This document shows, in pieces, positions 1,321 through 52,078 of a stretch of 64,000 nucleotides of DNA (its first letter is position 1; every line of letters begins with the position of its first letter). The notes under the pieces were generated by a model. It saw only the letters and a list, made by a program, of their open reading frames with translations. It had not been told where the DNA came from and ran no database searches. Origin of the DNA: Antedon mediterranea (taxonomy: Eukaryota > Animalia > Echinodermata); contig NC_092679.1 of the NCBI RefSeq assembly GCF_964355755.1, positions 21,869,432-21,933,431 of the forward strand. Direction: 5' to 3'. The position numbers and the translations under genes were made by a program.

Positions 1321-2545
1321 TTAACTTTTATTAATCATTTTAACCAATGTACCAAAACATAAGAATGTTTGTTTAATATCGCCATTTTGTCAAAATATTT
1401 ATTTTTATAACAAAAAAGGTACATTTAAAAAAATTAAATATTGCTAATTAATGTCATTCTACAAGTAAAGCCTTCTTCTTTCAAAATATGACACATAAAT
1501 ATTTTTCATGCTACATTCTTATGCATTATCCATCTCAAATTGAAATTGTCCGCATAAAATATGCTGTCAAATAAATTGAATGACATCAGCTGTTAAGGTT
1601 TACCATGTTCCACCGAAAACTCTCTACTGTATATAAAAAATATTTATTTATGTAAAGCATAATTCTGACATTGTTATTTATTTCTGGAAAAAAAATTATG
1701 AGAGATCGTAACGTGTAAAGGAAGGCGTCAATGCTAGTTTTCATTTACAGCTTGAATGATTTTTCTTTTTTCTCACCTGCTATAACCTTAGGCGTACACT
1801 TAGAAAACTGTCAACAATTTCTATGATGACATTTTAGTAAATAAGCTTGCCGATTAGTGATAATAATCTGGCAGCTTTATTCTTAAATGTCAGTCTTGTT
1901 ATTTATGCCACCTTTGAAGTGAAGGCTCAAGTGTTTGTTATGATATGTTAGTTGATTAGGTTTCGTCCACAAGATCAATTTAAGTAAAATCAACAACGAT
2001 GCGGTTATCTGATTAAATAAAGATCGGATATGTCTTTGTGTAATTATGTTTAATGTTGATGATTAAATAATTCTATCATAGGTTTTGGACATTTTATTTG
2101 GTCATGTGGCTGGGACTTTTTTGTACAAATCAAATTGCCTGGGGAGGTTGAGTGGTGGAGATTTTTTTTTTCTAATGCCAAATAGTTTGCCCACCAGTGT
2201 CTGACCAAGAGGTTAAAGATGTATTATCCCCTAAAAACATGAAAAATGAATAGAAGATTAATAAAAAAAAAATAGAATAATTTTGACACGATCCCTTATG
2301 TACATATGTCAAATTGTCAATATTGTCAGCAAAAAAACATGGTAATATAACCGATACAAATTGAAATATATAATGCAAGATATAAAAATATATTTTATTC
2401 ATCATTATTTAATATGAACTATAATTTAATATTTTGATGTGAAATCTGTTTATTGATAATAATAATAATTTCATATTGTGAATATTGAAATAATAAATTA
2501 TTTGATGATTATACTAAAAAAAATATTTTTCTTGCCTTTTTACAG

Positions 2546-2587
2546 TCTCTGGAAAGCACACGACGTATGCTCACACTTGTGGAAGAG
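2546..2587 (+). CDS. SNAP25: SNAP-25 exon (vertebrate exon 3 equivalent) [14 protein letters not shown]
   Basis: ttttacag| 42 nt |gtatgt. Confidence 0.95.
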
Positions 2588-5500
2588 GTATGTTCTATCT
2601 GTCCTTTGATATTAGTTCTTGTCTTTTAGTCTTAACATTTTTTTTTAGTGCAGATTTACAGTAAAATCTCTATTATAAGATCACCACTGGTACTATATAT
2701 TCACATACCTGTATGGCATTTTATGCCCAGTATCATCGGCAAGTTCTATAATACAGTATCACATGTGTGTCACATTAATGCCTTTATTATGTTAAGCTTA
2801 TGATCTATGATACAGGCTTTACAAGTATAAGTAATATGTGACACTGTATCATAGAATTTGCTTTGATACTGTATAATATAGATACAGTACCGGGAATCTG
2901 CTAGAAGTTTTGCATCCCAAACAAATTCTACTATTTCTTTGTATTTTTGTTTATGATGTTTTTCAATGCAAATTAAATTAAAGATTCTTTTGTGGCTCTT
3001 TAAAAGAGTTTTTACTGTAAGCTATAAATAGATTTAGAAATAAAATGTTTGTGCTATAGATAAATCAATGGTTAATGTTTCATGTAGTCTTGTTAATGCC
3101 AATTGTTATTACAACATTAATTTCATTTTACTATTATACACTATAATTTATTATTATTAATAATAATTGGAACATTTCATTTTTTTTTATTTCATGATTA
3201 TTTACAACAAAAAAACTATTAAATATTATTATTTCACTGTAAAAATTTTTGATTTTTTTTTATATTTTTAAAAAATATATGGATAACTATCTTTTTTACT
3301 TCAAATGTTTTGAATTAACTACCTGACCTAAAACCAAGGTAAGATAGTGTGAAAGATACGAGAAATTGATTAAAACACTTTTTAAAATCTAGAGAGAAAA
3401 ATAAATAAATTATAAATGATATTAAAATTAACATAATAATAGTATTATTGTTCGATGTTTTATTAGTATAAATAACTTTGCAATAAACAAAAAGGTTCCA
3501 ATTAATAAAAAAAATTAATTAGAAATTTAATCAAAATAATTCAAAATGTTGAAGCATGGATTAAGAATATCATAAAACCAACAGAAAAAAAAAAGGTAAA
3601 TTGCTAATTTTGTTATTCCAATAAAATTGTTGCTCCTTTAAACTATCGGATGTAAAATTGTCTGTCGTGATTTAAGTCTTTCGTCACAGCATTTATGCAC
3701 GCTGAAAAATCTTAATTCCTTCCTAACAAGATGTATCCAGTACATATCAAACCTCCAATAATTTATCATATTTAAACACATGAGCACTTTATGTAAAGAT
3801 ACAAAGTTTGTGCAATTTTTTAAAATGTATTTATAACATCTAAGCATACCCAAAGTTTGTATGTTACATTCTAGTTTGAGCCTAGCTTACCCGGATAAAC
3901 CAACATACAGTAAGCCTATTATTCTCTAATGTTAAATTTAAAGAAAACAATCCTATTAATATTAATGGTTCAATCCACAAAATTCCAAAATTCTTGAATT
4001 TTAGATAATTACCCGGATAAACCAACATTTGCCTATTTTACTCTCTATATATATAAAGTTTAAATCCTTTAACAAACCCATCACAGTTATTGGTTCAATC
4101 TACAGAAATCCACAGAGGGAGAGCATCTCGTAAAATGAACATTCTTAAATTTTAACTCATTGAAAAAATAAACACTGTAATTTGCAGTCTGCAATTCAAA
4201 ACGAAATGCTCGACAGACCACCACATTAACTTTGGGAGTTCGCACACTTTGTTGTTGTATGCCTGGTTGAACTTCATTCCAAGGTGTCAAGAAAGATTTA
4301 CGTTAATTTTCACAAAGTCAAAATAGAATGAACGTATCGAAATTATGAATTTATAATGTCCACTTGTAATCAAAAACATTTGTGTCTTCGGTTTAAATAA
4401 TGTTAGTTATAAAATGGAAGTATATATTTCAACATTAAAATAAAATTTGAAATAAAACTGTGCTCTTTGATGCGTGAAGAAAACATTTGACGATTGTGAC
4501 TGACAGAAACTTATAAACTTATAATAAAATAAAATTCTAATATGGTCTATATTAAATATTTATTAATACAATAATTTATAACTATAATATTATTACAATT
4601 TTATTTCTAAATATATTTTATTAATTCATATTTAATGGACTGCAAAAAAGGATGTCTTAACTTAATGACATAATTAAGTATTAAAAATAAAATGCTAAAT
4701 TTTCGCTTAAAAATATTTAATTTAAATGATTTTTATATTTTATATGTTTGTTTTTATAAAATGTTATTATATAATGCTGTGTGGCTATACAATGTTATAA
4801 TGATGTGTGATGTTGTACAATGCTTAGAGCCAAGATGTTGGTATCAAGACACTTGTTATGCTGGATGAACAGGGAGGTAAGAAAGGGAGTCAGCTCAATA
4901 AATGAAAGCTGCCAATTGTCAATCAATGACTAAATCACTGCTTTGCCAACACTCATTGGTTGAAAGTTTTATCATGTGTACATCCACCCTCTGGTATGAA
5001 AATTGTACTGTCCATCTTTTGTGCACAGCATTTTAATACTGTATTCAGATGGAAACCGTCGTTTCTTGTGAATGAATATGTAATATATTCATATTTTTGC
5101 CTATTAACTTTTCTTCATTTTCATGTTACTGTCTTCTCTGTGTTTGTGTATATTTTATACGGACTGTTTATGTTGTTTTGTAAATGTTTTTTTTTATATC
5201 TTTTACTACTATCTATCATCCAACCTCATTCCTCTATTTTCTTACTCAAAAAACACATTTTTTACACATTTTCATCATACACTATTTTATTTTCTATTAA
5301 AAATCTAATCTTTTTTCCATTTCTAATGATCAATAAATTTTGTTTTTTTAATAATAAAATTCCAAGATTTTTTTCCTTGCTTTAAAAAATATACACCAAA
5401 CCAGTGTTTTCCATACCATACAGGTTCATTCATATTCATTAAAAGAAGGACTTTCACAGTCCTGTTTTTATTTAATTCATTTAGGATGATAAAGAAAAAG

Positions 5501-8500
5501 TATGTATATTTTTTAATAATATCCAATGGGGATTGGTCGATGGGAATGCTTCTTTACGAGCATGAAAACTGAAACGCAAACGAAAACGCATTTTTTAGCA
5601 TGATGCATTGTCTTGCATTCCCTCGCAAACCTTGACCTCTGACCTCCCATTCTGTCCATCCAACAGTATGTGCTTAATTAGATTGAGCAGAGTGAGGGTG
5701 GGGGAGTGGAGAAGGGTATCTGGATAGGAGGAAAAATTGTAACATATCTCTTATATTTTTGTTAAGAAAAGTTGTGGGTTTATGAATGTAATTTATTTAG
5801 TAGCCTCATTGGCTCTGTATTTAGTTTAGGAGTACAACATTGTCAGTGAGTTAAGAAATAGATAACAATGACATTGTGACACAGACACAGACACAGTATA
5901 TATACCCACAAATGTATTAAGACTATATAACCCTCTATGTTGAGGAATCAATTGATGTAGACACACCCATCCCTTCCTTTGTGGTAGATCAAATCCGACT
6001 AGTGAACAGTGTTCCTGGCAGCCCTCTCAAAAAATAAGCCAGTGCTTACAAATTGTCTCTAATTTCAACTATGACCCTTTGGGTAGTGCTTGGAGTGCGC
6101 GCTCCCACTTTTAAGACAGCAAACATTTAATTATGAACTAATTTTGGTATATATTTTAAATGTAGGAATATTATTTAATACTGTAATATGTTACAGTCCT
6201 GCAGTGCTTAGTGATCTATGTTGGGATCTACACTTACCTATTGTTCTGAAATTAAAAAGTCTAAATTAAAACCGCTTTACACTATACACATTATGATATA
6301 CCACAATCTTAATATTCCATGCCCAATTTAGCAAAATGCTTGAATGCTTGCATTTCTAGTGTAGTATTTTTGCATACCAAACAATCAATAAATTTTATTG
6401 GCTTGGTGTCAAGCAATTTCCTATAGCAATCTACCGAAGCATTATGGTTTTACAAGATGTGAAATCATTGTCAAAATTAACAATATTTCATTTCTTTTGT
6501 TAATTTTTAAGTTATTATAAAAATAGTATGAATTTTAATTGTTGTTTTATTTATAATATTTTATTAGGGATGTTGTTTATACAATAAACAATAAAAATTG
6601 ACTGTTTGAATTTTAATTATTAAATATTTTATTTATATATTTATTTTATTGAGAAAGTTATTGATTGTATTTTACTTAAGGTATAATTTAGCAAGAATAT
6701 AGTTAAGCACTGTAATGTATTTAACTGATAATATTTTATATAAATTATTATTATGTTTTGTAGAATGTGTTGTATTTGTTGATGTAGTCAGTTTTGAGTG
6801 GCATGTGCGTTTTATTCACAAGATTGTCAATAATATGTGATGTTTTTAAATTTACATATTTTAATATAAAATATTAATATTCGCTAGAATATCAATTATA
6901 ATAGTTTAAAATAATAAAATAAGAATAAAAATTACCATACTTTAATAATCAATGTTTGTCATTTTTCCGATGATAGACTTGAAATTGTAATCTTTTTTTA
7001 ATATTAAAAATTGTTCTATTTTTAAATTGATAGTGTTTAGTACTATTTTAACAATAATATGTTTTGTAAACAAGCCTAAAATATATTATTTGTACTCCTT
7101 TTTTACAAATATAATAATAATAATAACTACGGTATATATAATTTTTTTTTATAAATCCATCAATTTATTATGATTAATTTTGTATTACCATAAACAAAAC
7201 TCTTCCATATCGCTTGTGACATAACAACAAAAAATATAATCCTTTTCTAAGATACACTGTTAATAACATCTATCGCGCTATTTGTCGATATGCCACTATA
7301 CATTTACGGTTGAGTGAACAAGGAGTTCACATTTACATTGTACTGTAATCCATTTCAGTACATAATTATTCATATATGATTAAATTATATATGCATACCT
7401 AAAATTACATTTTTTTTATTTGGGTATCAATCCTGATATATAAATTAGAAGAAAAAAATAACTGCTGCTGTTTGAGTTGACCTTATTACAAACAAACACA
7501 AAACAACATATGCAAAAGATAAATTCAAAGGAAACTAATCAATTCCATATTCTGCTTTTTTTTTATTTTCTCGTATTATTTAAATAATTAATATGAATGG
7601 AATTATTATTAATTTATTTATACAGTACTTCCCTCCATACATGAGCATTATATTATATTTATATTAGGAAAACCTATTAAGAAATTTGTATCATATTACA
7701 AAAAGACCCACTATCAAATAGCTAAATTAATTAATAGTGTAAAAATAGTTTTTAGACATCACGATTGTTATTTGTTTTACGTGTTTTGTACAATTAGTTT
7801 TGTGTTTGATGTTTTTTTTTCGGCTATCAGTTTAAAATTAAATACGTCTTATTTTTAAGTAAATTTAGAAAATACATTATTTGGTTGTTTTAACACTTTG
7901 GATAAAAATTTTAATATGACAAAGAGAAAATAAAATATTAAAGTTTCATTATTAATATAATATTACCATTAACTTGAATTAGTATGTTTATAACGCTCGT
8001 TTTCTGGTTGTGTGCTTCAGAGAAAAATAATAGAGTTTATACTTAATTATACAAATGTTATTATTATTAAGGTATAACCACATATTTTGAAGTGAAAAAT
8101 GAAGAAGCTAGGCTGAAATGTGTGTGTAGAGAGAGATAGAGAGTATAGTTGCTAAAATACAGTACCCTTTTAAATTCTTCATTGTGTTAGGAAGGGGAAC
8201 TCACTCACCTCCTAACCCTTATTATTAGTACCATTAATTTGATTAAAGGCTAGATAAGATTTGTAATTAAGACTAAATACTAGGATTATTAAGGATTTAT
8301 TATTGGATTAAAATGCGATTTGCATAAAACTTACACCTGTGTTGATGTATGCAGATTTTCTTCCCTTTCATAATTATGCATTTTTTCATCTTCATTCCCG
8401 AAAATTAATTTTATTCATCCACGCATTTCCTTCATGTATTATAAGCATATCCTAGTTTCATTTGATTGTTTATTCTTCGTTTTATCCTTGCATGTATTAT

Positions 8501-11500
8501 TTCATGTTTTTGTTTAAAATCACTCCTTTGAAATGTTGGTTTTCAGTTTAAAATTATTAAAACATTTATGAATTACAATCCCCTTTGTTTGCTTATAAAA
8601 AACGTTGTTAATAGTCTGAATTAGACATTTTCTACTATGGGGGTGTGATTACGTTTGTTCTTTCAACCAATGAGTGTTTTATTTGCCATTATGAATGCAT
8701 GTTCATTACCACGTTTGACATTTTCTTTTCTCTTCGTTTCGTTTCACTTTTCATTGCATTTCATAGGCGAAGGATTCGGGTCTGAACACCCTTGTAATGT
8801 TGGATGAACAAGGAGGTGGTGAACCTATACAACCCTTTTATCAATGTCTTGGGGTCGTTCAGAATCATCAATGTTTTTAAAGACTGCAAAGGCTCTCTTT
8901 GCATCCCTATCTTAATGAAAAAAAGAAGAATATTATCCAGTGTTTTTATCAAACGAACAACTTATTTCCTTTGAATTCTTTGAAAATATTGATAATTTTT
9001 GGCGACGCCTTTTATAACAAACTAATTTACTGTAGTTCGTATTAAGTAGATAGTTTGTGCACCTTTTATTGAATTTGATGGAAATGTTGTTTAAAAAACC
9101 AACAACAAATAAAATATTGATTTGTGAATTTAAATAAAAAATTAAATGATGCTTGAGATTATAATAATTATCCAAAATTAATTTTCAAAACTTTAAGGGA
9201 CCATTTCAAAATGATTCTACTGCAGTTACTGCAGTAGCTACATTTTCAATATGGTATAACCTTTTTATGCAATTAATTAGCAATTACTTGTTGGGTTGTC
9301 ATATAATGACTGATACTGATTATAACCAGCTATAAATTCATATATGATATTGCGGTAAAAAATGTAGTTACTACTGCAGTAGAATGGCTTTGACGTGATC
9401 TCTAACCACATTTCCATGAAATAAATGACAACGCTAATTTGACGGTTCGTTACCGTGTGAACGTACAGTAACCAGCAATATTTATTCGTTATTTTTTCAT
9501 TAGATACTTTCAGATAATTTATCGCTGTATCTCTTCATTTTTTTTTTTCAATATCATGTGTCCTATAAATTAAAAAAAAAATGCTTTTATGTTTCTTTAT
9601 TCTTTTTGCAGTAAAATCCTTTTTGAAAAAATTCTACTTTAGCTTTGTAAAAACAATTTTTTTTAAACTCTTAGATGTATTACAGGCTTTGAATGTCATA
9701 CTATTGAAAATAAGCTAACTATTCATAACGCAAAAAAAGACATGTTTTCAATTAAAGCAAGTGATTTACTAAAATTGAGATTTTGAACTTTTTTTTATTC
9801 AATTTTCTTATAACAGATCTTCAAATATTTTTTGTATCATCCATTTAGTTTGCACAAAATCTTTAAATCGATGAGGCTTGTTCGTTGACATTTATCATTT
9901 TTTTTAAATTACTTCTGAATTATACAAAACTATAATTCCATGTGAACACTGAATGTGAAACCAGTCTGAACATCAAAACTTGGCAGAAATTTAAATGCTA
10001 ATTTGGAAAAAAAGTAGCTGGCTAACAGCAGTATAGGCAAACAGACATAGGATTATTGAATCACCTCGTTTTAAAGGATTCTTTTTGAATCATCCATTCT
10101 TTGAAAAATGAAATTAGTTTTTATGATCATATTAGGAACTTGAGTTTACCTCATTATCAAGAGGATACGCTTGATTGACTCTGAATTCAAAGAGAATCGC
10201 ACGAATCGAAGGCAATCATTTGGAGACTGGTTTTAACGCAAAATTGATTTTCAATCAAAAGGTTCATTAAAATGAAATTACATGCGTGCAAGCTGATAGC
10301 ATATGTACTAGTGTTATGGTTGTAACTTAGATAGTGTTATGATATGGTGTAGGGTTTACTCAAAATATTAGGATTATTGATGCAGGATGGGCAGAGTATA
10401 GTAGTGAAGCTTCTAGTATGTGAATTAGGATTGGGGTGGGGCACTGACCATTAAAGTGTAGTGTGAAGTATCAGAGAGTGGGAGTGAATTATCCGGTGTA
10501 GGAGTGAAATATCCGTCAGTGGGAGTGAAGTATCTATTAATGGTAGTGAACTATCTGAGAGTGAAGTATCTGAGTGTGGGAGTGAAAGTATCCATGAGTG
10601 GGAGTGAAAGTATCTGTGAGTGGGAGTGAAGTATCCGTGAGTGGGAGTGAAGTATCCATGAGTGGGAGTGAAGTATCCATGAGTGGGAGTGAAGTATCCA
10701 TGAGTGGGAGTGAAGTATACGTGAGTGGGAGAGTGAAGTATCCGTGAGTGGGAGTGAATTATCCATTAGTTGGAGTGAAATATTTGTGAGTAGGAGTGGA
10801 GTATCCATGAGTGGGAGTGGAGTATCCGTGAGTGGGAGTGAAGTATCCGTGAGTGGGAGTGAAGTATCTGTGAGTGGGAGTGAAGTATCCGTGAGTAGGA
10901 GTAAAGTATCCATAAGTGGGAGTGAAGTATATGAGACTGGGAGTGAATTATCTGGGAGTTGGAGTTAAGTATCCAAGAGTGGGAGGGATTTATCGGAGTA
11001 GGAGTGAAGGGTTTTGGAAGTGAGTGATTTATTGTGGAGTAGGAGTGAATTATCTGAGAGTGTGAGTGAAGTATCTGAGTGGGAGTGAAATATCTGTGAG
11101 TGGGAATAAATTATCTGTGAGTGGGAATAAAGTATCTGTGAGTGGGAGTGAATTATCTGAGAGTGCGAGTGATTTAATGGGAGGAGTGGGAGTAAATTAT
11201 ATGGATGTAAAGTACCCAGAAGTTAGAGTAATTTATTTCGGAGTTAATTATTCATGGTGGGGGTGAGTTATCAGTCAGTGGGAGTGAGTTATCAGTCAGT
11301 GGAGTAAAGTATCTGTTAGTGTTAAAATATCCAAGAGTGAGGACCAGAAAGAGTAGGGAGAATGAAGTATCCAGGAGTGTGGCATTGACCAGCAAATAGT
11401 GGTAGGAGAAGGATGAGGGAGTGCAAAGTTGACTAAAAAAAAAGTAGTGGGAGTAAAGAATCTAGGGGTGGAAAGTGAAGTGTTTAGGAGTGGAGAGTGA

Positions 11501-24600: not shown

Positions 24601-27371
24601 ATTCTAATTCATCACTACATATGAAACGTAAATCTTAGGGCTAAGATAAGTTTTTTGTATTTTTAGAACATTTTATCCAAATAAGGGATGATTTATTGTA
24701 GGATTATAGCATTAAGTGTGTTTAAAGTGCACAATTTATTCAGTACTTTTTCAATAAGATTATTTTTTGTCTTTGTTTAAAAAAAAGTGTTTTTATTTAA
24801 ATTTGTGCAATATCGTTTAAATGTTCATAAATTACTTTAGATTCTTTGTCATATAGAATAGTATTGTATCGTATTTTTCTGTTGAAATCACCTTTGAATC
24901 AATTTATTTAGTGTAATAGATCAAAACAAAATTAGTTGACTTACTACATAGTTTGTTATTGCTAGGCCTAATCATGAATGATAATATGTAGCTGTTTGTT
25001 TTTTTTATTCTAGCTATACTCAGTAAAAATGTCAATTAAGTTCAACCACCTCTAATGATAGAGCAGGGAGCTGTTATTAGCCCGGATAGAGTTAGCAGTC
25101 AGCTTTCCCAATTAATGCTCTGCCTACACTATCCAACTTTATGTGACAACAAAATGTGATGTGCCCATATATGGACATGATGACATCATATCGCTACCAT
25201 ATTTGAGCACACACTGGTTTGATAGTGTAGACAAAGGTTAAGACGAATGTTTGAATTTCCATTTTGTATTGGGAGAGTTGACTAAATATTATAATAAAGT
25301 TTAGTTAGATAAGGTTTAGATTACTGTCTTATTAAACACATTAGCATAGACATCCATAGTACTATTCCATCCCATGTTTATCATTCCTTGTTCATCATAT
25401 TGTCACCGCAGGATTTTCATTAAGGCACTAAACCATATTCTAGTCAGTATCTAATAGAGAGAGCTTTTGAATCGATTTTCATTCACCTAGTAGCTGTAGT
25501 ACCTAAGCCTCGATCAGAGACATCACATATACTATATTATCACAGCAGTTGTCCTACACTTAGCCCTATACTTCCCTACCTATTTTCTCAGTCCGTAGAT
25601 CACCATTTCCTCCCCCTACCATCACCATACTAGATACCTAATCCTTCCAGTTTTTTCCCCCCAGTAGGTCGAAATGCCTAAAGAACAAGTTGTAGCCTAT
25701 TCATAATTTGTCGTGTTGAGATCCATTTTAGATGTATATAGATTAAATATGTACAGTACACATTAAGTTGAATTTCAGTATTCAGTATCCAAATAGTTCT
25801 ACTTAAATTGATTTATTGTATTATAATTAAGGTACAATTTTGTTTCCATTTATTTTATGTTGATATATATAAATTTCTTATGCATTACATTTTTTTGTAA
25901 TGTCCAATTAGGTAATTTTTTTTCATATACGTCCGTGTGTGCAATAGATTGTACAAAATAATAACACCTGTATTTGTAATAGAGAAATGGCACCACCAAT
26001 AATGTTCAAATCAATTTTAATCCTATTAATTATTTATTTTTAATATAATAAATGTTTCAGCTTACTTACAATATTTCATGTATTTATATTCAACTAGTAT
26101 ATATATCACAAATTTTACTTTTTTTTTTTTTCATGCTTTTTCCTACACATATGATTTCAATATTTTTCAAGCACATACAAATGTTAATGTTTCTTAATTC
26201 CATATACTAACATTCAGCCAGTTTTAAAAAAATTAGGCACAATTTGGATGCCAAATTGGCAGCCATCAAGCCTCCAGGAAAATGTTTGTTTTGGTATTCA
26301 GGAAAGTAAAAAATCTCTCACATCTCCCGACAATCACCGTCAGTTGTTTTATGATATTTCAAGTGATATCCCGTCTCCTGCTAAAGGTGGAATTTCTCCC
26401 GATTGATGGTATTGGATATACAGTACCTTGTATACTACAATGGTATATAGGGATAAATAAAATTGATAGCAAGGGTGGAAGAAAAGGTGGGATGGAGTGC
26501 GATGTGTAGGATGTTGGAGAAGGGAGAGAGAAGAGACTTATTTACTACACTACACCTGAATACCATAAACAGTCATTTTCATGCATGCCATCCTGTTGCT
26601 TTATTTTCCTTTTATTTGCTTGAATATCTGTGCACGTACTGAACAGTATAAACTTTTTTGTTTTCATATTTTGTGAATATTAACATTTTTCTTATACAAT
26701 TTTATTTTCAGCTTTTTAAACAACTTTATTTGACATTTATCAATTTTTCACAATAGCATACAAAAAAAACTCTTTACTTAACAACAAAGATGAGAAAATG
26801 CACTAAAAATGTATACATTTTGTTTATAAAGTAGAACCTCTATTAAGGGGACACCTTCTTCAAACAAATTTCCTAATATGGCTGTACCATGAATAGGTGT
26901 TGGTCATAATGCTAAAACATATATGTCCCCTTGTTTGTTTTATGAGAAAGTGGCCCTTTAATAAGATGTCTCCTTAATAGGATGTCCAATTAATAGGGTG
27001 TCCCCTTAATAGGGGGTGTCCCATTAATAGGGTGTCCCATGAATAGGGGTTTCCCCTTAAATATGGGTTTCCCATAAATAGGCTGTCACTTTAATAGGGC
27101 GTCTCCTGAACCCTAATATGGGGCCCCATTATTAATAGGATGTCCCCTTAATAGGATGTCCCCTTAATAGGGTGTCCCCTTAATAGGGGTTTCTCTTAAT
27201 AGTGGTGTCCCCAGAGGAGAGTTCTACTAATCTATACTTTTGTACAATGTTAATAGGTATTTCTTTCAATATCTATCTAATTTCAATGTCTCCTATTCAC
27301 AGGCCGAGTCCAATAATGAACGTATACAAGTAGCAGACAAAAGGGCCAAGGATATATTAAGAAAACAGTAA
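2546..27371 (+). CDS. SNAP25: Synaptosomal-associated protein 25 (Qbc-SNARE), multi-exon, 5'-partial; alternative exons 4a/4b and 8a/8b
   Basis: GT-AG exons 2546-2587, 4828-4876 (or 8767-8815), 19603-19720, 20547-20681, 21430-21574, 23733-23795 (or 27303-27371) join in frame: [78 protein letters not shown]. Exon sizes 42/49/118/145 match vertebrate SNAP25 as recalled. Confidence 0.97.
4828..4876 (+). CDS. SNAP25: SNAP-25 alternative exon 4a [16 protein letters not shown](E)
   Basis: cttag| 49 nt |gtaaga; contains the zero-layer Gln of SNARE motif 1. Confidence 0.93.
4948..5006 (+). promoter_or_regulatory. 5' arm of predicted long-range intronic RNA duplex (pairs with 8625-8678)
   Basis: 4948-4966 aacactcattggttgaaag is the exact reverse complement of 8660-8678; 4976-5006 pairs with 8625-8654 using G-U pairs and bulges. 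Confidence 0.8.
8625..8678 (+). promoter_or_regulatory. 3' arm of predicted long-range intronic RNA duplex (pairs with 4948-5006)
   Basis: ctttcaaccaatgagtgtt at 8660-8678, ending 88 nt before exon 4b. Confidence 0.8.
8767..8815 (+). CDS. SNAP25: SNAP-25 alternative exon 4b [16 protein letters not shown](E)
   Basis: Polypyrimidine tract + tcatag| 49 nt |gtggtg; same length and phase as 4a, synonymous divergence with protein conservation. Confidence 0.88.
9196..9403. mobile_element. Degenerate MITE
   Basis: Imperfect inverted ends attctactgcag..ctacattt / aaatgtag..ctgcagtagaat; related fragment near 44055-44100. Confidence 0.55.
10475..11340. repeat. 21-bp minisatellite GAGTGGGAGTGAAGTATCCRT, degenerate edges
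   Basis: Tandem units visible; explains the 7-aa periodic ORFs 10551-10913 and 10744-10968. Confidence 0.9.
11465..13775. repeat. 22-bp minisatellite GAGTGGAGAGTGAAGTATCTAG, about 105 units
   Basis: Homogeneous purine-rich tandem array in the SNAP-25 intron. Confidence 0.97.
14985..15692. repeat. (ATC)n trinucleotide microsatellite
   Basis: About 700 bp of catcatcat with cac/caa/tat variants. Confidence 0.97.
17736..17880 (+). mobile_element. tRNA-derived SINE (degenerate)
   Basis: A-box-like gtagtggagctggtgg and B-box ggttcaatcc; homologous to the minus-strand element at 56040-56568. Confidence 0.6.
19603..19720 (+). CDS. SNAP25: SNAP-25 exon 5 with palmitoylation Cys cluster CCGICTCPW
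   Basis: tttcag| 118 nt |gtaata; [38 protein letters not shown]. Confidence 0.95.
20547..20681 (+). CDS. SNAP25: SNAP-25 exon 6 (linker, QPMRV motif)
   Basis: ttttag| 135 nt |gtatct; [45 protein letters not shown]. Confidence 0.93.
20961..21030 (+). mobile_element. tRNA-like SINE head remnant
   Basis: ggcacaatagcttagcggtt ... ggttcaaatcc ... tgcca: A/B boxes but no convincing anticodon arm. Confidence 0.5.
21187..21342. mobile_element. MITE family A
   Basis: agctctgtctaca ... gtgtagacagagct. Confidence 0.8.
21430..21574 (+). CDS. SNAP25: SNAP-25 exon 7 (SNARE motif 2)
   Basis: ttttag| 145 nt |gtgagg; [48 protein letters not shown]. Confidence 0.96.
21808..21971. mobile_element. MITE family A (further partial copy 22376-22464)
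   Basis: agctctatctacac ... tgtagacagagat. Confidence 0.8.
23217..23339. mobile_element. MITE family A, one end truncated
   Basis: Internal family sequence and right TIR gtgtagacagagct. Confidence 0.75.
23733..23795 (+). CDS. SNAP25: SNAP-25 alternative terminal exon 8a [20 protein letters not shown]
   Basis: TACTAAC at 23665-23671, pyrimidine tract, caacag acceptor, phase 0; aligns to vertebrate ADSNKTRIDEANQRATKML. Confidence 0.9.
   Translation, partial: AQSNVGRISVANERAAKLLK
25116..25239. mobile_element. MITE family A
   Basis: gctctgcctacactatcc ... tttgatagtgtagaca. Confidence 0.7.
26829..27228. mobile_element. Tc1/mariner-like MITE family C with internal ~17-bp tandem expansion
   Basis: agtagaacctct ... 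gagttctact ends; internal aatagggtgtcccctt repeats; relatives at 13846-13929, 41495-41940, 49903-50043. Confidence 0.65.
27303..27371 (+). CDS. SNAP25: SNAP-25 alternative terminal exon 8b [22 protein letters not shown]
   Basis: ttcacag acceptor, phase 0; same heptad layer residues as 8a. Confidence 0.92.
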   Translation, partial: AESNNERIQVADKRAKDILRKQ

Positions 27372-31028: not shown

Positions 31029-34000
31029 ATGGGAGGTACTGTATCTAGAGATGATTTTGAGTGGGTTTATACAGAAGAACCACATGTTTCAAGACGCAAA
31101 GCAATACTTAGTGAGTACTTACTGTAGAGTGTAAGCCTAGGCCTAGCCTATTTATATTATAATCATCAGGGTGATGGAAAATTCTGAGTGAGCTGTTCAC
31201 ACGTAGAGTCTATAGGCTAGGCCTAGTAGTAGTAGGGCGGCCGGCTATTAGGCTAGATCATGGAAACGAAATAGAGGATAGTTAGGCCTAGGCTATATAC
31301 AGCCTACGTACTAAGGCCTAGGCTAGCCTATATATAGGCCTAGTAGGATGATGGTTTTTGATTTACTTTTAATTTATAATATTTAAATGAAGGAAAGGGG
31401 AGAGGGGCTATTCTATTGTTAGGGCCTAGGCTACATACAGTATCTAACCATCATAATAAAGGTAAGTTTATGTACGAATATATGGGCCTATTCAATTTTG
31501 TTTTATGTTAAAATTATGTTGGGTATTAATAGGCCTAGAGGCCTATAATTATGACAATTCAAATAAATAATAAAGCAATGGAATAGGCCTATCTATAGAA
31601 ATAGGCCTAGTTAGTAGAGGCTTTTAGGTAAACCTAGGCCTATCCTTCAAAATTACAATTAAAATTTATTTATAGATTCCACTAAATTCAGAATTTCCAA
31701 GGTAGGCCTAGATCCTTCAACAAGAAGACTGTTTTTGTTAACTTTCTTAGTATTACTTGTTTGTACAGACAGATAATAAGACTAACTACCTTGTTGACAG
31801 CAATGCAAACAATACAAAAGCCTGTTCATATTTGCTTTGCTTTGTTGATTGTTTTTTTATAATCTTGTGCTGATATTATTGTCTAGATAACTAAATAAGG
31901 AAACATGCTACTGTCATTTTATTGATAGCATGATTACATAGGTAAATAACGTCCAAATTTGTTCCTAAAATAAGACAATGAAATGAAAACTAAATATTTA
32001 CAAGCAAATGCATTAAATTAGAAACCATCTTTAGAATTAGAAAAATCTTAATTTAATTCCAATGGGGTCCTTTAAAAACAGCATTGACAATCGCAACAAA
32101 CGGTATACTAACATATCAAACACGCATGACAATAAAATATGGCAGAGAAGATATACAATTTTAAAATATGAGACAAACAAAATTGGATGACCTACACTAA
32201 TTGCAAAAATAGGAGAGCTATGTCTACACTCTCAAACTATTTTGAAAAAAAAAGTGTTGTGCCCAAATATGATAGTGATATGACATCATGTCCATATATG
32301 GGCACATCACACTTTTTGTCACATAGAGTTTGATAGTGTAAACAAGGCTGAAGACTAGAGTAAGACTTCTTTTGTGTTCTGAAAACCCTTTGTCTAATTT
32401 CTCTCTAAAAAACATAGATGTATGCTACACATACAAATTTGTTTAGTCAATAATAACACCTGCAAAGTCTGAACTATAATCTTGAAAATGTCTATGATTA
32501 TTATTTGCCAATAAAATGTCCCATAAAAGCTTTGCTAGCGGAAGTTATATTGGCTATGCTTTGTATATGTCCATCTAAAGTTCAATTGTTTAGTTTTTAA
32601 TCACAAATGAAGTGAACTGAATGACTTTTAGGGTGACCTTCAATCTACAAATAGGTATTATCAAAACCGATTTGATTTAGGTAATTGTAAATCATGCACC
32701 ATCTTCTACAAAAGGTTTGATTTAATAGAAAGATTAACATTGGTCTGAATGTATGCCTGGCTGGGAAGATTAAATGAAGGATTAAGCTTATAAATGTGTA
32801 CAGTATCAGTACCACTCTCTCTGATTGGATTGGTCCTTAATCATCCAAATACTATGGTTCTTGTTAAAAATTATTATTTTTGTTAAAATAGGAAATGTTT
32901 AAATTGACTAATCAGGGCTCGAAATTAACTCTTTTTTTTTCTCTGCGCATATTGTCAACTCTCCCAATACCAGATACCTTTGGGCTGGCCTAATATGTCT
33001 GGTTTTCTATAAAGTCTGGTATTTAATTCCTTAAAAATTGAATTTACAGTCTTTTTTACAAGTACTGTACAATCAAAAGCATAAACTAGAAGTGTGACAT
33101 TTTTGCTTGCTTTTGAAAATTTGGAAACAAAAATGAGTAGTTTGTTATAGTAAATTTTGTGCCCAGATAAATATAATCTGATAATACTGACTAAATATTT
33201 AATTGATACTATTCAATTTTACATTTAAATTTTTTCAGAAAAATATCCGGAAGTTAAGAAGTTGATGGGTCATGATGACAACACAGCTTCTACCATGGTT
33301 GTTATGGTATTGACCCAGGTCTTGACCAGTTACCTACTCCAAGACCAGTCATGGTTGACCATACTAATAGTAGCATACTGCTTCGGAGGCGTAGTCAATC
33401 ACTCTATGACACTTGCCATTCACGAAACCGGACATAACCTGACGTATGGCCACGGTCATCCGATGCGGAATCGTCTGATAGGTTTCATCGGTAACACCAT
33501 ACTCGGTGTACCAATGTCGGTTTCGTTTCGGCGCTACCATCATGACCACCATCGTTATCAAGGGCAGGAACATATGGATCCGGATATACCAACTCATGCA
33601 GAGGGCGTACTATTTCATAATAGAATCACGAAAATGATATGGATGTTTTTCCAACCGTTGTTTTACACTCTACGTCCATTTTTTTTACGACCAAAAGTTC
33701 CCGGACGTTTAGAATATTATAATCTCACGGTACAGTTAATATTCAATGTATGCCTTGTGTATTTCACAAGTTATAAATCGTTGGCATATTTATTGCTTTG
33801 TACTTTTATAAGTTTAGGACTTCACCCGATGGCGGGACACTTTATTTCAGAACATTACGTAGCTGTTGGAGATTATGAGACGTATTCGTATGAAGGGGCG
33901 TACAATTACCTAGCTTTCAATGTTGGATATCACGTTGAGCATCACGATTTCCCAAATATACCGGGCAAGAATCTACCACTGGTAAGTCTTATTTCATGCT

Positions 34001-34522
34001 AGAGTATGCTTATAGCAAACTTTCCTTTATGGAGGGTAAACAATTTAACATTGAGCCGAAACAAAAGGAACATGTATTCTGTCTAATAGTAAACTTAGTA
34101 TAATTTAATAACTATAAAATAAAACAAATAATATTTTATTTGTCATTGAATTAGTGACACATTTTAAGGTATGCTTAAGTCAACAGATAACAAGAACGCT
34201 CGTGTCAACTGAAAAGTATGAGGGCGCTTCTGTCACCATGAAACTGATTGCTAAAACTACTTTAGATTGGGCTGATGTCATAACCCAGTTGAGTTCATGT
34301 CGGCCTTACAGTAACGTCCCTTAAAATCCTATGTTATATTTATAACTTCATATTTTTCAGGTTCGTAAAATCGCACCAGAATTCTACGAAGACCAGAAGT
34401 GTCATGAATCGTTCACGGCTGTTGTTTGGGACTTCATTATGAACCCTGAAAATGGACCATTCAACCGTATCAGACGACCCGACGCGCGCGACCCAAGTCT
34501 ACCTGATCCTTGGATACGTTGA
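31029..34522 (+). CDS. DEGS1: Sphingolipid delta(4)-desaturase DES1-like, copy 1 (328 aa)
   Basis: Exons 31029-31110, 33239-33981, 34361-34522. [20 protein letters not shown]-terminus; His boxes HETGH, HHDHH, HVEHH; three-exon DEGS structure. Confidence 0.96.
32216..32349. mobile_element. MITE family A
   Basis: agctatgtctacac ... gtttgatagtgtaaacaaggct. Confidence 0.7.
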
Positions 34523-37158: not shown

Positions 37159-37957
37159 TTAATCGTCTTCTTTTATGCATAACTGCATACTTTATAGGCC
37201 TTGTACTCATTTTAAGCTGGTCACAAAAATATGTTATATTTTCAATTTATCACTAGTCCTACAATTTGTTTGCATTTCCTGATGTATATTTATCCCAAAA
37301 AAATTGTTACAATGTTCAGAAATGATATCAATTGAAAGAATTGTTTATTCAAGTGTTCTAAGGTGTGTAATATTGACTGGACTTTAGACTATTATCGTCA
37401 TGGCAATACATGAACAATTTAGCTAATTATTATCATAATAGATAATAGTATTAACAGTCCTGGCTTGGTCTAAACAATTTTTATTTGGCCTTAATATTAA
37501 AATATACAAATATTCTCCGAATTTGATTTTAGGATTATTACAGTATATATTACAGTATTACTATTCTTAAGTTGTTTTTTTTTTTGTGAATTTATGTAAA
37601 ATTTATTTCTATGCATTATTTATTCTATTACAAAGATGTGTAAAAAGTAAGGTACTTATATCCTTGTTTTATTATATAGTAACATTTTTCTACAGTATTG
37701 TAATTGTATTATTCAATAATTAGAAACAAAAATGATATTACCCATGATATGATATAGGTATTTACTTATTACTTTCACAATATTCCTATACCTTCATGGA
37801 AGCGTTTGTCTGTGATGGCCCATTCGATATCTATTGTAAAAATCAGTTGTATATTTAATTGGAGCCTGATGATGAATTATTGGAATAAGAGTTTTGTTTT
37901 ATGGTTGTTAAAATATATTGATTGATCAATTAATGTTTTCAGTGTTTTTCATTAAGT

Positions 37958-38827
37958 GTGCCTGTTCTCAGAGTGTATTGGGAATATTGTAGGCCTACTC
38001 CTGTACTCTTTGCTGATGATCTTCTCATTTATAGACCCATTCATTCAGATACCGACTCTACAATTCTTCAATCTGATCTTCATTCCATTCACCAGTGGGC
38101 ATCTGCAAATTCTATGTCATTTAACCCAAAGAAGACAAAAGTGATGCAAGTTACTCGGAAGAAAATATATATGTCTCACACTTACTTCTATAATGGTCAA
38201 CCTCTTCTCACTGTCTCCTCACACAAATATCTTGGTCTTACTCTCGACAACAAATTATCCTGGAATGAACATATAAATAATGTTGTTTCTAAGGCAAACA
38301 GAATGTCGGGGCTTATTTTTAGTGTTGCTAATAATGCTTCAAAACCTGCTTTACTGTCTCTTTTTAAATCTTTAATTTTACCAATTCTTGACTATGGACT
38401 TCCTGCTTGGTTGCCTCAAACCAAGTCCCAGTCAATCCGCATAGAGCGCATCCAACAAAATTTTACAAGAAGAGTTCTAAAATGTAAAAGAGGAGAGATA
38501 CCATACCTTACCAGGTTAAATTCTTTTAACCTCATGTCTCTTGAAAACCGTCGCAACAAAATCCTTTTTCACTTTATTTTTAAATGTCTTTATGGCTTTA
38601 CTGACTGCTCTTCTGTCATCCAGAATCTCACTATCAATCCTAGACATACTGAAGACCTCACTTTTAATCATCTCTTTTCTCGAACACTGGCCCTTCGTAA
38701 TTCTATAAACCGCTTCCCTAAACTTTGGTCTCGGTTACCTTCCTCATTACGCCAATTACCTGTTACTGAATCTTTTCCTCATCTTTTATCATCTATTGAC
38801 TCTTTCCTTCTTGATAATTATCTTTAA
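37958..38827 (+). pseudogene. Reverse transcriptase fragment of LINE ORF2
   Basis: LFADD motif, W..N.M.FNP.KTKVM, KYLG..LD.KLSW..HI, FKSLILPILDYG, IERIQQNFTR; no real start codon. Confidence 0.9.
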
Positions 38828-39454: not shown

Positions 39455-42230
39455 ATGGGAGGGGTTGTTGGTACGGTTTCAAGAGATTCATTCGAATGGA
39501 CTTACACCGAAGAACCGCATTTTTCACGCCGAAAAGAAATGCTGAGTAAGTTGTCCTAGATTGTTGTTTACTTATTAATATTACTAGGCCGTTATGAATG
39601 GAGCGGGATCTCTGGATTTGGTAACCTGATACGAATCCACTGAGGTACAATCAATTAACTATTTAGGAGGAATGTTGTAGGCCTAGCCTTTTAAATAAAG
39701 AAAAACAAGACAACTTCGCGCTTTATTGTTGCATTTTAAAGATTTAGAAATTTAGTTTAGAGATTTAGTACAAGAAAATCCATATGGCATTGCATTCATG
39801 CTTTCTTTCACCATTGAAAAGATCGATATTTACTATCTTACCACACTCTATTGATAACGCAAGCAAACATGCGGTGGTGACGAACGTGGATTTTGTGTTT
39901 GTTTTTGCATTGCAAGATTAGAAATACGGAGTACGTGACGTCGGACTTGTCATACATTTTAAACCGGTCGATGATATAATTTTCTTTTCATCACAGTTTA
40001 GTCTTATTAATAATTAACTGTTAATACAAATTTTAAAATCAACTTCCCCCTACCCATACATACATTCCATAGAAAAGAGCTAGCCTGTATTTGCTCCTAC
40101 TAATAACTAGGCCTACATAGTTTATCATGAAATTAAACCAGGCATGTTATTTCCCTTTTTATGCTTGATGATGGCCAGCACCACATATCCATCTTGCATT
40201 GTGATTGGTCAATAGTTTTAACATGTGGTTTTCGATACCATTGGCAATATGATGCCTAACTTAACAGCGATTTGGAAAAGAACTTTTTTATTACAAGTTG
40301 TTAGAACTCTTAAAATAACATTTTTAATATAATTTACATATTGACCAATTTCTTATCTGACCCCCTGTATTATGAAATATCTATAATTAGTCTTATCATA
40401 ATCTCATCAATCAAACCCAAACTTGTCTTGTGAAAGTCATAAAATCAAATTTAGGTCAAAGTATAGAGATCATTAGCCACTGTAGCTTTATATAAGTTCC
40501 AAATATTCTCACCGCATATCATCGTGTGTATATAAAGTACAATTAATAAAGGTTTTGGTTTTAATACTATATATGTGGTATGTCATTTTATTTTTTAAAA
40601 TTTTGTCCAATGAGTTTCCACAGAACATATTAAATATCCAATTTTATTTACTTTTTCTTCAGAAAAATATCCTGAAATTAAAAAATTAATGGGCCATGAC
40701 AACAACATGGCAATGATTATGGTTGCTATGGTGATAACCCAGGTAATAACGTGTTACCTAATACAGGATGAATCTTGGTTGACGGTTTTGATTGTCGGTT
40801 ACTGCTTCGGCGGCGTTGTCAACCATTCAATGACTCTTGCACTCCACGAAACGGGGCATAACCTACCGTTTGGGCACAGCAGACCATTGCGGAATCGATT
40901 GATTGGTTTCCTAGGCAACTGCGTCATTGGTGTCCCCATCTCTATATCATTCCGTCGTTATCATCACGATCATCACCGTTACCAGGGTGAGGATAAACTT
41001 GATCCAGATATACCATCAGATTTGGAAGGCGTACTTTTTCGTAATCGCTTCACAAAAATGATATGGATGATTCTGCAACCAGGATTTTATGCAATTCGAC
41101 CGTTTTTAAAGCGTCCGAAAGTGCCTTGTAAAATGGAGTTTTATAATTTATTGGTGCAGCTTATATTTGATATTGCAATAATTTATTTTATGAACTGGAA
41201 AGCATTGGCTTATCTGTTTTTCGGAACTGTACTCTGTATGGGGATACACCCATTGGCTGGTCATTTTATTTCTGAACACTATTTATATGCTGGTAATGAT
41301 GAAGAAACATATTCTTATTATGGTCCCTACAACTACATTGCATTCAATGTAGGCTACCACATGGAACACCATGATTTTCCCAACATACCAGGACCGAAAT
41401 TACCTCTGGTAAGACATTTTCTTTTTTTTGTATATCGAGTCTGGATATATAAATTTTTTTATAAATTTTAAACGAATGACATAATAGTGTACTACAGTAA
41501 AACCCTGCTTTGGGACAACTCTAATAATGGGACACCTCTATTAATGGGACACCTCTATTAATGGGACATCTCTATTAATGAGACACTATTAATAGGACAT
41601 CTCTATTAATGGGACACACCTATTAATATTACATCTCAATGGGACACACCTACTACAGTATTAATGGGACATACCTATTAATGGGACACACCTATTAATG
41701 GGACATACCTATTAATGGGACATACCTATTAATAGGACATCTCTATAATTGGAACACACGTATTAATGAGACACACCTATTAATGGAACATACCTATTAA
41801 TAGGACATCTCTATTAATAGGACATCTCTATTAATGGGACACCTCTTTTAATGGAACACCTATTAATGGGACATCTTTATTAATGGGACACACCTATTAA
41901 TAGGACATATCTATTAATGGGACACTCCTATTCATGAACACTTATGTGTGAAACAAACAAGGAGAATATGTTTAAACATTACATACCCTTCCCTCTATTC
42001 ACTCCTATAAAAGACGCATCGGAAATAAAATATATTATAGGCCATAAAATCAATGTTCTTTCTTTCAGATTAGAAAAATTGCACCTGAATATTATGATGA
42101 CTTACCGTCACATGACTCGTTTGCAGCTGTGGTTTGGGATTTTATAATGAATCCACAAAGTGGACCATTCAATCGTATCAAACGGCCAGCGTCCAAGGAT
42201 CCTACAACACCTGATCCATGGGTTATGTAA
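39455..42230 (+). CDS. DEGS1: Sphingolipid delta(4)-desaturase DES1-like, copy 2 (332 aa)
   Basis: Exons 39455-39545, 40663-41408, 42069-42230. MGGVVGTVSRDSFEWTYTEEPH; His boxes HETGH, HHDHH, HMEHH. Confidence 0.96.
41495..41940. repeat. 17-bp tandem array GGGACACCTCTATTAAT derived from MITE family C
   Basis: Starts cagtaaaaccc; reverse-complement relative of 26950-27200. Confidence 0.85.
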
Positions 42231-51700: not shown

Positions 51701-52078
51701 GTCATCGAGAATGCAATGTACGAGTAATTATTTATTACATTTTTTTTGCATTATCTACTTTGCATCTAAAGTAAAATTGGGGCAATGCTTTTTCGAATGG
51801 TTAAAAGTGAATGACGAAAATCTGTTCATTCATCATTATTTGTACCAACCACTGCAGTTGCGATTAATAATTCAATTAGTAATTACTGAAAAGCATACAT
51901 CTGAAATTGAGAATAGCCTATATATTAAATTAATTATTAAATCATGACGTACAACAAAACCATAATTTCTTAAGACATCGCACTCAGCAACTATACCATA
52001 CTGCTCAAAGCTTTGTCGCAACTTTTGACTCGAATAGCCATTTGGTAAATTTCCAACGAACAACTTCTTCTTTACCAT
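48752..52078 (-). CDS. RBM4: RNA-binding protein 4 / lark-like (RRM + CCHC zinc knuckle + RGG + R/Y/P-rich tail, about 304 aa)
   Basis: Exons (minus) 52078-51953, 51537-51344, 51133-50876, 50731-50666, 49022-48752 join in frame. MVKKKLFVGNLP..FEQYG.V.ECDVLRNYGFVHME..VQYST..PGIG..CFRCGETGHFSRECP is lark/RBM4-typical. Confidence 0.88.

What the first reader, a model, noticed from the sequence alone, without database searches (positions are those of the whole stretch)
4828..8815. Mutually exclusive duplicated SNAP-25 exon 4 (not the vertebrate exon 5a/5b)
4a [17 protein letters not shown] versus 4b [17 protein letters not shown]. Both are 49 nt in the same phase, so including both or neither shifts the frame. 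The C-terminal half is identical in protein with synonymous changes (gtt/gta, ctg/ttg, cag/caa), implying purifying selection. Differences fall at layer -4 (S/A) and at residue 40 (Q/K, human numbering); K40 belongs to the synaptotagmin-1 primary interface of neuronal SNAP-25. 4a has a strong donor and a UG-rich, poor acceptor; 4b has a strong pyrimidine tract and a weak donor (gtggtg).
Basis: partly seen in the sequence, partly recalled or inferred. Interest (0 to 1): 0.8.

Follow-up and report, generated by a model that had tools for sequence, protein, structure and literature searches.

The report
Ancient swappable exon in SNAP-25
A feather-star gene for the vesicle-fusion protein SNAP-25 holds two alternative copies of one small exon, also found in sea urchins, acorn worms, clams and arthropods, and a long RNA stem predicted to form between the copies likely helps pick one, which would let one gene make both a SNAP-25-like and a SNAP-23-like surface for the calcium sensor.

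Summary
Observation confirmed. A crinoid SNAP-25 gene has two 49-nt copies of exon 4 (4828-4876, 8767-8815). Either gives an open frame; both or neither gives an early stop. One contig of a probable RNA run joins exon 3 to 4a; spliced 4b was not seen. 4b is not dead: both peptides are unchanged in two crinoid genera, and 15 of 15 named echinoderm and hemichordate species retrieved have both forms, as do a clam, a nemertean and Limulus. The pair is already in public records, and this scan found it before in sea urchin and arthropod DNA.

Two additions. First, a predicted 46-bp stem (19 bp perfect, -53 kcal/mol) pairs 4948-5003 with 8627-8678 and would fold out 3.6 kb between the copies. It is untested, and I could not check its conservation. 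Second, 4a resembles vertebrate SNAP-23 (Q40) and 4b resembles SNAP-25 (K40), a published difference at the synaptotagmin interface (PMC8967716). The two vertebrate genes may each have kept one ancestral exon. An effect on fusion is inferred only.

The parts
2546..2587 (+). SNAP-25 exon 3 (42 nt); exons 1-2 lie upstream of the window
   Evidence: joined to 4a in one X1 contig, GT..AG
4828..4876 (+). exon 4a, Q40 class, residues 39-54; strong donor, pyrimidine-poor UG-rich acceptor
   Evidence: peptide identical in Antedon X1/X3/X4, Anneissia X1/X3, sea stars, Mercenaria and one amphioxus gene
4948..5003 (+). stem arm 1, starting 71 nt after the 4a donor; 4948-4966 is perfectly complementary to 8660-8678
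8627..8678 (+). stem arm 2, ending 88 nt before the 4b acceptor
8696..8701 (+). TGCATG, the Rbfox-type motif (motif as given in PMC12772994), 18 nt from the stem base and 65 nt before 4b
   Evidence: 1 of 2 copies in 2588-19602; binding not tested
8715..8766 (+). likely branch point (adenine near 8718, inferred by eye from the sequence) and long pyrimidine tract of the 4b acceptor
   Evidence: sequence
8767..8815 (+). exon 4b, K40 class, residues 39-54; weak donor
   Evidence: peptide identical in Antedon X2/X5 and Anneissia X2/X4
19603..19720 (+). exon 5 (118 nt), single copy; holds the cysteine cluster
20547..20681 (+). exon 6 (linker)
21430..21574 (+). exon 7 (second SNARE motif)
   Evidence: 100% to Antedon mediterranea, 94% to Anneissia
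23733..23795 (+). alternative last exon 8a (coding part)
   Evidence: an X1 contig starts at its acceptor (record 4)
27303..27371 (+). alternative last exon 8b (coding part)
   Evidence: an X1 contig starts at its acceptor (record 7)

Best explanation
This crinoid SNAP-25 gene carries two conserved 49-nt copies of exon 4, of which a working mRNA can hold only one, and a 46-bp RNA stem predicted between them likely steers the choice, so that the gene would make a Q40 (SNAP-23-like) or a K40 (SNAP-25-like) version of the helix face that likely meets synaptotagmin. Step 1 (shown): two exons of equal length and phase; both or neither gives an early stop. Step 2 (shown for 4a by one contig; inferred for 4b from conservation and public records, about 0.97): both are used. 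Step 3 (predicted, about 0.6): arms 4948-5003 and 8627-8678 pair, fold out 3.6 kb, and bring the 4a donor to about 110 unpaired nt from the 4b branch region. This would disfavour 4a-to-4b joining and bring the TGCATG site near both exons. The opposed splice-site strengths (4a poor acceptor and strong donor, 4b the reverse) would let splicing factors tip the choice, and nonsense-mediated decay would clear leaks. Step 4 (inferred, about 0.4): exon 4 encodes residues 39-54, and the swap changes K40 and its neighbours while D51/E52/Q53 stay fixed, so the K form would couple better to synaptotagmin for fast calcium-triggered fusion and the Q form would serve slower or general secretion.
For: Exon anatomy and frame. 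Joint 2587>4828 with GT..AG ends in 1 contig of run X1 (depth 46), absent from X2 and X4. Both peptides are identical across Antedon and Anneissia, although other exons differ between them. Both forms occur in 15 of 15 named ambulacrarian species retrieved, and in all 24 hand-picked within-species pairs the 47 flanking residues compared are identical. S. purpuratus has one GenBank protein of each kind, AAC35867 (Q) and AAC83577/NP_999754, named 'ovarian' (K). Stem: the longest perfect inverted repeat in 2588-19602 is this 19-mer (7 G+C), and the next has 16 nt and no G+C; 0 of 300 dinucleotide shuffles of the 4a-4b intron reached 19. The full duplex has 43 Watson-Crick and 3 G-U pairs, -53.3 kcal/mol on the sense strand and -42.1 on the antisense strand. 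Each arm is the other's best partner among 1637 tiles (z -6.9 and -8.3; runners-up -36.1 and -34.6 kcal/mol). The same search at the ends of the 5 other introns tested gave -12 to -31 kcal/mol. The arms have no close copy in the window, and X2 depth over both is at baseline. Interface: K40, D51, E52 and E55 are named as key residues, and SNAP-25A differs from SNAP-23 at the interface by K40Q, L47I and V48T (PMC8967716 passages).
Against: No spliced 4b in this organism: X1 depth over 4b is fully explained by one unspliced contig. Most support for 4b use comes from predicted RefSeq models whose read support I did not see. The stem has no conservation or covariation test. Perfect inverted repeats of 21-33 nt occur in 4 of 16 other tiles of the window, where several are copies of dispersed repeats. 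With long 134-157-nt windows the pairing did not stand out from the G-rich satellite. About 110 nt exceeds the 50-60-nt steric limit quoted in PMC7969005 and PMC13762713, and the linker folds are not significant (z +0.54 and -1.64). No competing partner of docking-site type was found. Residue 40 is not strictly Q versus K: the a-type exon has R in Apostichopus, H, E or A in insects and E in Babylonia, and both Haliotis forms have K. SNAP-23 with Q40 still supports Syt2-triggered fusion in vitro (PMC8967716, PMC9258623 passages), so the effect may be small. By the usual Rbfox position rule (recalled), the TGCATG site would favour 4a in neurons, the reverse of a simple 'K = neuronal' reading.
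Confidence: 0.72

Rival explanations
1. The exon pair is real, but exclusivity rests on splice-site asymmetry, RNA-binding proteins and nonsense-mediated decay alone. The inverted repeat is a neutral relic, such as remnants of one old repeat in opposite orientation.
For: 49 nt is not a multiple of 3, so decay can remove leaks (mechanism listed in PMC6071210). The window has long inverted repeats from mobile DNA. The effective donor-branch distance is above the steric limit. In Drosophila Rdl exon 3 a conserved, predicted pairing element proved dispensable (PMC13762713 passages).
Against: The arms look single-copy, sit within 90 nt of the two facing splice sites of a 3.9-kb intron, and fold better on the transcribed strand. 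None of the 5 other introns tested has a comparable end-to-end duplex.
Confidence: 0.35
2. The two exons are kept because they tune something other than synaptotagmin: SNARE zippering or partner choice (syntaxin, Munc18, complexin, alpha-SNAP) through residues 39-45.
For: Five residues differ, at 39, 40, 42, 44 and 45. Residue 39 falls on core layer -4 by heptad counting from Q53 (layer scheme recalled). The charge at 40 is not a strict class marker.
Against: K at 40 is in all 24 b-type exons of the pairs listed, while 39, 44 and 45 vary freely among them. The core layers at 43, 46, 50 and 53 are the same in 4a and 4b.
Confidence: 0.35
3. 4b is a dead or rarely used duplicate in this animal.
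For: Weak donor, 4 of 9; no spliced 4b contig in X1.
Against: The 16 residues are unchanged in Anneissia; there are 4 synonymous and 0 replacement changes against 4a in codons 46-54; K-type exons occur in 15 of 15 ambulacrarian species. Contigs drop rare variants.
Confidence: 0.02
4. Evolutionary rival: exon 4 was duplicated several times independently, and the likeness of 4a to SNAP-23 and of 4b to SNAP-25 is convergence on a few sites, not shared descent.
For: Exon order differs: Q lies upstream of K here, but K lies upstream in the fused insect gene models of Cotesia and Aphis. Insects have three forms; Haliotis has two K forms. Tunicates have one mixed exon (scores -2.5 and +0.7 bits). Typical SNAP-23 scores only +3.6 bits without site 40. 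Sixteen residues cannot give a resolved tree.
Against: The 4a peptide is letter for letter the same in crinoids, sea stars, a clam and amphioxus. Leave-one-species-out classing was right for 20 of 20 exons across four phyla or more, also without site 40.
Confidence: 0.4

Closest known systems
Vertebrate SNAP-25 exons 5a/5b (PMC2581893, passages read)
   Same: Same gene; tandem duplicated exon used in a mutually exclusive way; recodes part of the first SNARE helix.
   Different: A different exon (residues 39-54, not 55 onward); exon 5 is single here. The exon 4 pair spans invertebrate bilaterians, and no vertebrate record retrieved had it.
Public records of the same event: Antedon mediterranea XP_071961764.1 (X1, 4a) and XP_071961765.1 (X2, 4b); S. 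purpuratus AAC35867 and AAC83577
   Same: The same exon pair, with identical crinoid peptides.
   Different: They are listed as numbered isoforms or separate cDNAs. I found no paper that describes them as an exon pair.
Vertebrate paralogs SNAP-23 and SNAP-25 (PMC8967716, PMC9258623, passages read)
   Same: The K40Q difference at the synaptotagmin primary interface is the 4b/4a difference. Exon 4 of 112 of 116 SNAP-23-search hits has Q40, 4 have H and none has K; the SNAP-25 sequences seen have K.
   Different: Two genes that differ along their whole length, against one gene with one swappable exon. SNAP-23's L47I and V48T are not in crinoid 4a, although I47 is in the hemichordate a-exon.
Structure-guided mutually exclusive splicing: Dscam exon 17 (Yue 2013, title only, seen in reference lists; paper not held), Dscam docking/selector and srp bidirectional pairing (PMC6071210 passages), SCN9A stem plus Rbfox (PMC12772994 abstract, sections 7 and 8)
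   Same: A long-range intronic duplex beside duplicated exons; a TGCATG next to one arm, as in SCN9A.
   Different: Both arms lie in the intron between the two exons, so no exon is looped out. No competing partner was found. The duplex is much stronger (-53 kcal/mol against -17 to -24 in the SCN genes). Nothing here is tested by experiment.

Membership tests
SNAP-25/23 (Qbc SNARE) family | Two SNARE motifs joined by a cysteine-bearing linker; PF00835 | tested here: met
   The window's exons match Antedon P0122/P0124, which hit PF00835 at 61.7 bits, cut-off 25 and rat SNAP-25 at E 2e-73.
Mutually exclusive exons from tandem duplication | Neighbouring homologous exons of equal length and phase with canonical splice sites | tested here: met
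Mutually exclusive exons from tandem duplication | Each exon found alone between the same flanking exons in transcripts | tested here: inconclusive
   4a: one contig. 4b: not seen in this organism; present in relatives' RefSeq models and in sea urchin GenBank proteins.
Mutually exclusive exons from tandem duplication | Both copies under purifying selection | tested here: met
   Peptide identity across crinoid genera and both classes in 15 of 15 ambulacrarian species; no dN/dS, as no orthologous DNA was available.
Vertebrate SNAP-25a/b (exon 5a/5b) | Duplicated 118-nt exon 5 | tested here: not met
   One exon 5 in the window: score 211, next 16.
Docking-site/selector competing RNA structures | One site able to pair with two or more alternative partners | tested here: not met
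   Runners-up for each arm are 17-18 kcal/mol weaker, and arm 1's best ones lie in a satellite.
Steric exclusion (donor to branch point under about 50-60 nt) | Short linear or structure-shortened distance | tested here: inconclusive
   Linear about 3840 nt; about 110 nt with the stem; shorter only if the linkers fold, which is not significant. Branch point not mapped.
Conserved long-range RNA pairing that regulates splicing | Conservation or covariation of the arms and an effect in mutants | not testable with these tools
   No genome is held for the window. The 80 metagenome loci kept were nearly all spliced or intronless; none held two exon 4 copies by motif search.

The most novel reading that the evidence does not exclude
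The last common ancestor of bilaterians had one SNAP-25 gene with a Q/K exon 4 switch at the synaptotagmin interface: the Q form is older (cnidarians, Trichoplax) and the K form was the bilaterian addition for fast triggered release. Later duplications repeatedly gave one exon to each copy: vertebrate SNAP-23 (Q) and SNAP-25 (K), the two neighbouring amphioxus genes, and Q and K cassettes behind shared 5' exons in copepod-like transcripts. In crinoids the switch is run by a single 46-bp stem that folds out the intron between the exons. SNAP-23 versus SNAP-25 would then be a frozen splice choice.
Probability: 0.3. Interest if true: 0.72.

Novelty: new member of a known kind. Interest (0 to 1): 0.5.

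Why it matters
Most invertebrates run neuronal, egg, sperm and general secretion with one SNAP-25 gene, while vertebrates use SNAP-25 and SNAP-23. A conserved exon switch that flips K40, the same residue that separates these two at the synaptotagmin interface, suggests how one gene covers both jobs and how the vertebrate pair may have arisen. It also gives a natural pair of proteins that differ in five residues, for a question that the authors of PMC8967716 say is still to be tested: whether the SNAP-23 substitutions strengthen or weaken synaptotagmin binding. The stem is a sharp, cheap minigene target for how two exons 3.9 kb apart stay exclusive. The exon pair itself is already in databases, which caps the surprise.

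Tried and rejected
No whole genome is held for the window, so exons 1-2 and orthologous introns could not be read. The run search listed no holder on record as RNA; X1 is a guess. Laying exons 3-7 in one piece was not possible because of the satellite, so 4a>5 and 4b>5 joints could not be seen. In one search, repeats crowded out all exon joints and loose ends (459 joints not shown). The lack of a spliced 4b contig in X1 is no evidence of silence, since contigs drop rare variants. No listed difference between runs falls in either exon or either arm, but at this density fewer than one is expected, so this is uninformative. The long AG-free stretch before 4b (90 nt) is not special: the other 7 acceptors have 44-164 nt. 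Local hairpins over the 4a acceptor, after the 4a donor and over the 4b acceptor are not significant (z -1.11, +0.54, -1.64, +0.40). No Rfam match in 2300-10000. The metagenome scan (80 of 380 hits kept) gave no genomic locus with two exon 4 copies; the last column printed is unreliable where a locus had no match and was not used. The tree of exons 3 and 5-7 (41 rows, 148 columns) joins SNAP-23 with SNAP-25 at 94/92, below the tool's star threshold, and separates the two amphioxus genes, but the AU test does not reject their being sisters (p 0.20). The first tree script failed on a pattern. The SNAP-23 search returned only amniotes among named hits, so fish, shark and lamprey SNAP-23 were not seen. 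No structure or complex prediction was run, since a five-residue swap on a helix is below what they resolve. PMC7685093 (passages) and PMC11802352 (passages) added only general background.
Full report
What is there. The window begins inside a SNAP-25 gene on the + strand: exon 3 (2546-2587), two copies of exon 4 (4a 4828-4876, 4b 8767-8815), exon 5 (19603-19720), exon 6 (20547-20681), exon 7 (21430-21574) and two alternative last exons (23733-23795, 27303-27371). Exon numbers follow the vertebrate gene by homology; exons 1-2 are outside the window. Exon 7 is 100% identical in protein to Antedon mediterranea and 94% to Anneissia japonica, so the animal is a feather star close to Antedon.

The observation. 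Both copies are 49 nt with AG/GT ends and share 34 of 49 nt. Either gives an open frame; both or neither gives a stop more than 340 nt before the last junction. A six-frame scan of about 127,900 positions finds no third copy and no second exon 3 or 5. Exon 4 encodes rat residues 39-54. The copies differ at 39 (S/A), 40 (Q/K), 42 (V/S), 44 (I/L) and 45 (K/N); codons 46-54 differ by 4 synonymous changes only. 4a has a strong donor and the poorest acceptor of the gene; 4b has a good pyrimidine tract and the weakest donor.

Is it used? Run X1, probably RNA, has one contig that joins 2587 to 4828 across a GT..AG intron; runs X2 and X4 do not. The only X1 contig over 4b is unspliced, so spliced 4b was not seen; contigs drop rare variants, so this says little. 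Conservation answers the question. Antedon RefSeq isoforms X1, X3 and X4 carry 4a and X2 and X5 carry 4b; Anneissia has the same two peptides unchanged. All 15 named echinoderm and hemichordate species retrieved have both an a form (Q40 in 14, R40 in Apostichopus) and a K40 form. S. purpuratus has one GenBank protein of each kind, the K form named 'ovarian'; that the Q form came from sperm or testis is my recollection, not checked. Most of the other records are predicted models whose read support I did not see.

How old? Q and K forms with identical flanks also occur in Mercenaria, Tubulanus and Limulus. Bees and wasps have K plus H and E forms, and some flies, Drosophila willistoni among them, have K plus an A form. 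Two unnamed JGI proteins are the same in the parts displayed except for a Q or K exon 4. The cnidarian and Trichoplax records retrieved have Q only; octopods, leeches, nematodes and a tardigrade showed K only, which may reflect what was retrieved. A profile trained on 10 species pairs that I chose classed 20 of 20 left-out exons correctly, with or without site 40. Against a single clean origin: Haliotis has two K forms, Babylonia has E and K, and in fused insect gene models K lies upstream, whereas here Q does. This scan noted the pair before in a sea urchin and an arthropod window; those notes agree with what I tested here, but they are not independent evidence.

Link to SNAP-23 and SNAP-25. 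K40, D51, E52 and E55 are key residues of the synaptotagmin-1 primary interface, and SNAP-25A differs from SNAP-23 there by K40Q, L47I and V48T (PMC8967716 passages; also PMC9811660, PMC9258623 and 10.1101/2025.09.30.679486 passages). Of 116 new hits of a SNAP-23 search, all amniote where named, 112 have Q40, 4 have H and none has K. The profile scores bat SNAP-23 at +10.5 bits (a class; +3.6 without site 40), alligator SNAP-23 at +29.4 and SNAP-25 at -16.3 (b class; -9.0 without). Amphioxus has two genes with neighbouring accession numbers on contigs of the same length, one with exactly the crinoid 4a peptide and one K type. Two pairs of copepod-like transcripts share exons up to 3 and then split, at the exon 3/4 junction, into a Q and a K version of the whole rest of the gene. 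A tree of exons 3 and 5-7 places SNAP-23 and SNAP-25 together at 94/92, short of the star threshold, and does not settle the amphioxus pair. This fits repeated sorting of one ancestral exon pair into separate copies, but convergence on a few sites is not excluded, tunicates are ambiguous, and I saw no fish or lamprey SNAP-23.

A candidate splicing mechanism. An inverted-repeat search returned, last in its list of 25 shown (156 found), a perfect 19-nt pair at 4948-4966 and 8660-8678. It is the longest perfect inverted repeat in the 17 kb between exons 3 and 5, and 0 of 300 shuffles of the intervening intron reached its length. It extends inward to 46 pairs, 43 Watson-Crick and 3 G-U, at -53.3 kcal/mol (-42.1 on the opposite strand). 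Each arm is the other's best partner among 1637 tiles, and the ends of 5 other introns give -12 to -31 kcal/mol. The arms have no close copy in the window and lie at baseline depth in X2, so they are not a high-copy repeat. The stem starts 71 nt after the 4a donor and ends 88 nt before the 4b acceptor. It would fold out 3.6 kb without looping out an exon, leaving about 110 nt between the donor and the likely branch point, with a TGCATG 18 nt from its base. I read it as an RNA bridge that disfavours 4a-4b joining and lets nearby factors act on both exons, backed by decay of frameshifted leaks. Against this: 110 nt is above the 50-60-nt steric limit (PMC7969005, PMC13762713 passages); linker folds are not significant; no competing partner exists; 4 of 16 other tiles have longer perfect inverted repeats, several from dispersed repeats; with long windows the signal did not beat the G-rich satellite; and conservation could not be tested. 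The nearest precedents are Dscam exon 17 (title only seen), the models reviewed in PMC6071210 (passages) and the SCN9A stem with Rbfox (PMC12772994 abstract and sections 7-8).

In print? Six searches aimed at this event returned 0, 6, 36 (25 listed), 0, 4 and 4 papers. By title and abstract start, none describes an exon 4 pair; PMC2581893 has no 'exon 4' or 'invertebrate' in its text. The library lacks most subscription papers, including the 1998 sea urchin papers and SNARE-evolution surveys (recalled), and I read no supplements, so prior description is not excluded.

Verdict. A real, functional and ancient pair of mutually exclusive exons, already present in public annotation: a new member of a known kind. 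Its value lies in two leads found here, the stem and the match to the SNAP-23/SNAP-25 split, both untested. Interest 0.5; novel case probability 0.3, interest 0.72 if true.

Noticed in passing
window 23733-23795 and 27303-27371: Two alternative last exons give two C-termini of the second SNARE helix. Both are in Antedon RefSeq isoforms, X1 contigs start at each acceptor, and relatives have up to four such ends (Ptychodera), plus alternative N-termini.
   Followed up: partly
L043/L054 and L047/L070: Copepod-like transcripts share the 5' part through exon 3 and then diverge into Q-type and K-type versions of everything downstream; the Eurytemora model P0187 looks like two such cassettes fused. 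Chimeric assembly is not excluded.
   Followed up: partly
proteins P0221 and P0455 (Carcharodon), P0457 and P0458 (Acipenser): Isoforms of a SNAP-25-like gene differ in exon 5 in a shark, whereas PMC2581893 places the exon 5 duplication in bony fish. These are predicted models.
   Followed up: no
proteins P0467, P0472, P0473, P0463, P0465: Drosophila species and Stomoxys have a second exon 4 form with Ala at 40, so the switch could be tested in flies.
   Followed up: no
window 33229-34002 and 40614-41471: Two tandem sphingolipid delta-4-desaturase-like coding blocks (PF00487, weak PF08557), with a reverse-transcriptase fragment between them at 37934-38827.
   Followed up: partly
window about 48750-52230, - strand: An RRM-containing gene with RG- and RP-rich exons (PF00076); an RBM4/lark-like identity is my guess.
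   Followed up: no
window 10557-13775, 14985-15691, 60661-64000: A 22-nt G-rich satellite and a CAT repeat inside the intron between 4b and exon 5, and a 19-nt satellite at the window end. A short dispersed element recurs many times and is at very high depth in the runs.
   Followed up: no
window 4974-5032 with 4773-4821: The best partner of the UG-rich stretch before 4a overlaps the inner part of stem arm 1 (-32.1 kcal/mol, z -3.5). It could loop out 4a in competition with the long stem, but it is barely better than the runners-up (-31.2, -31.0).
   Followed up: partly
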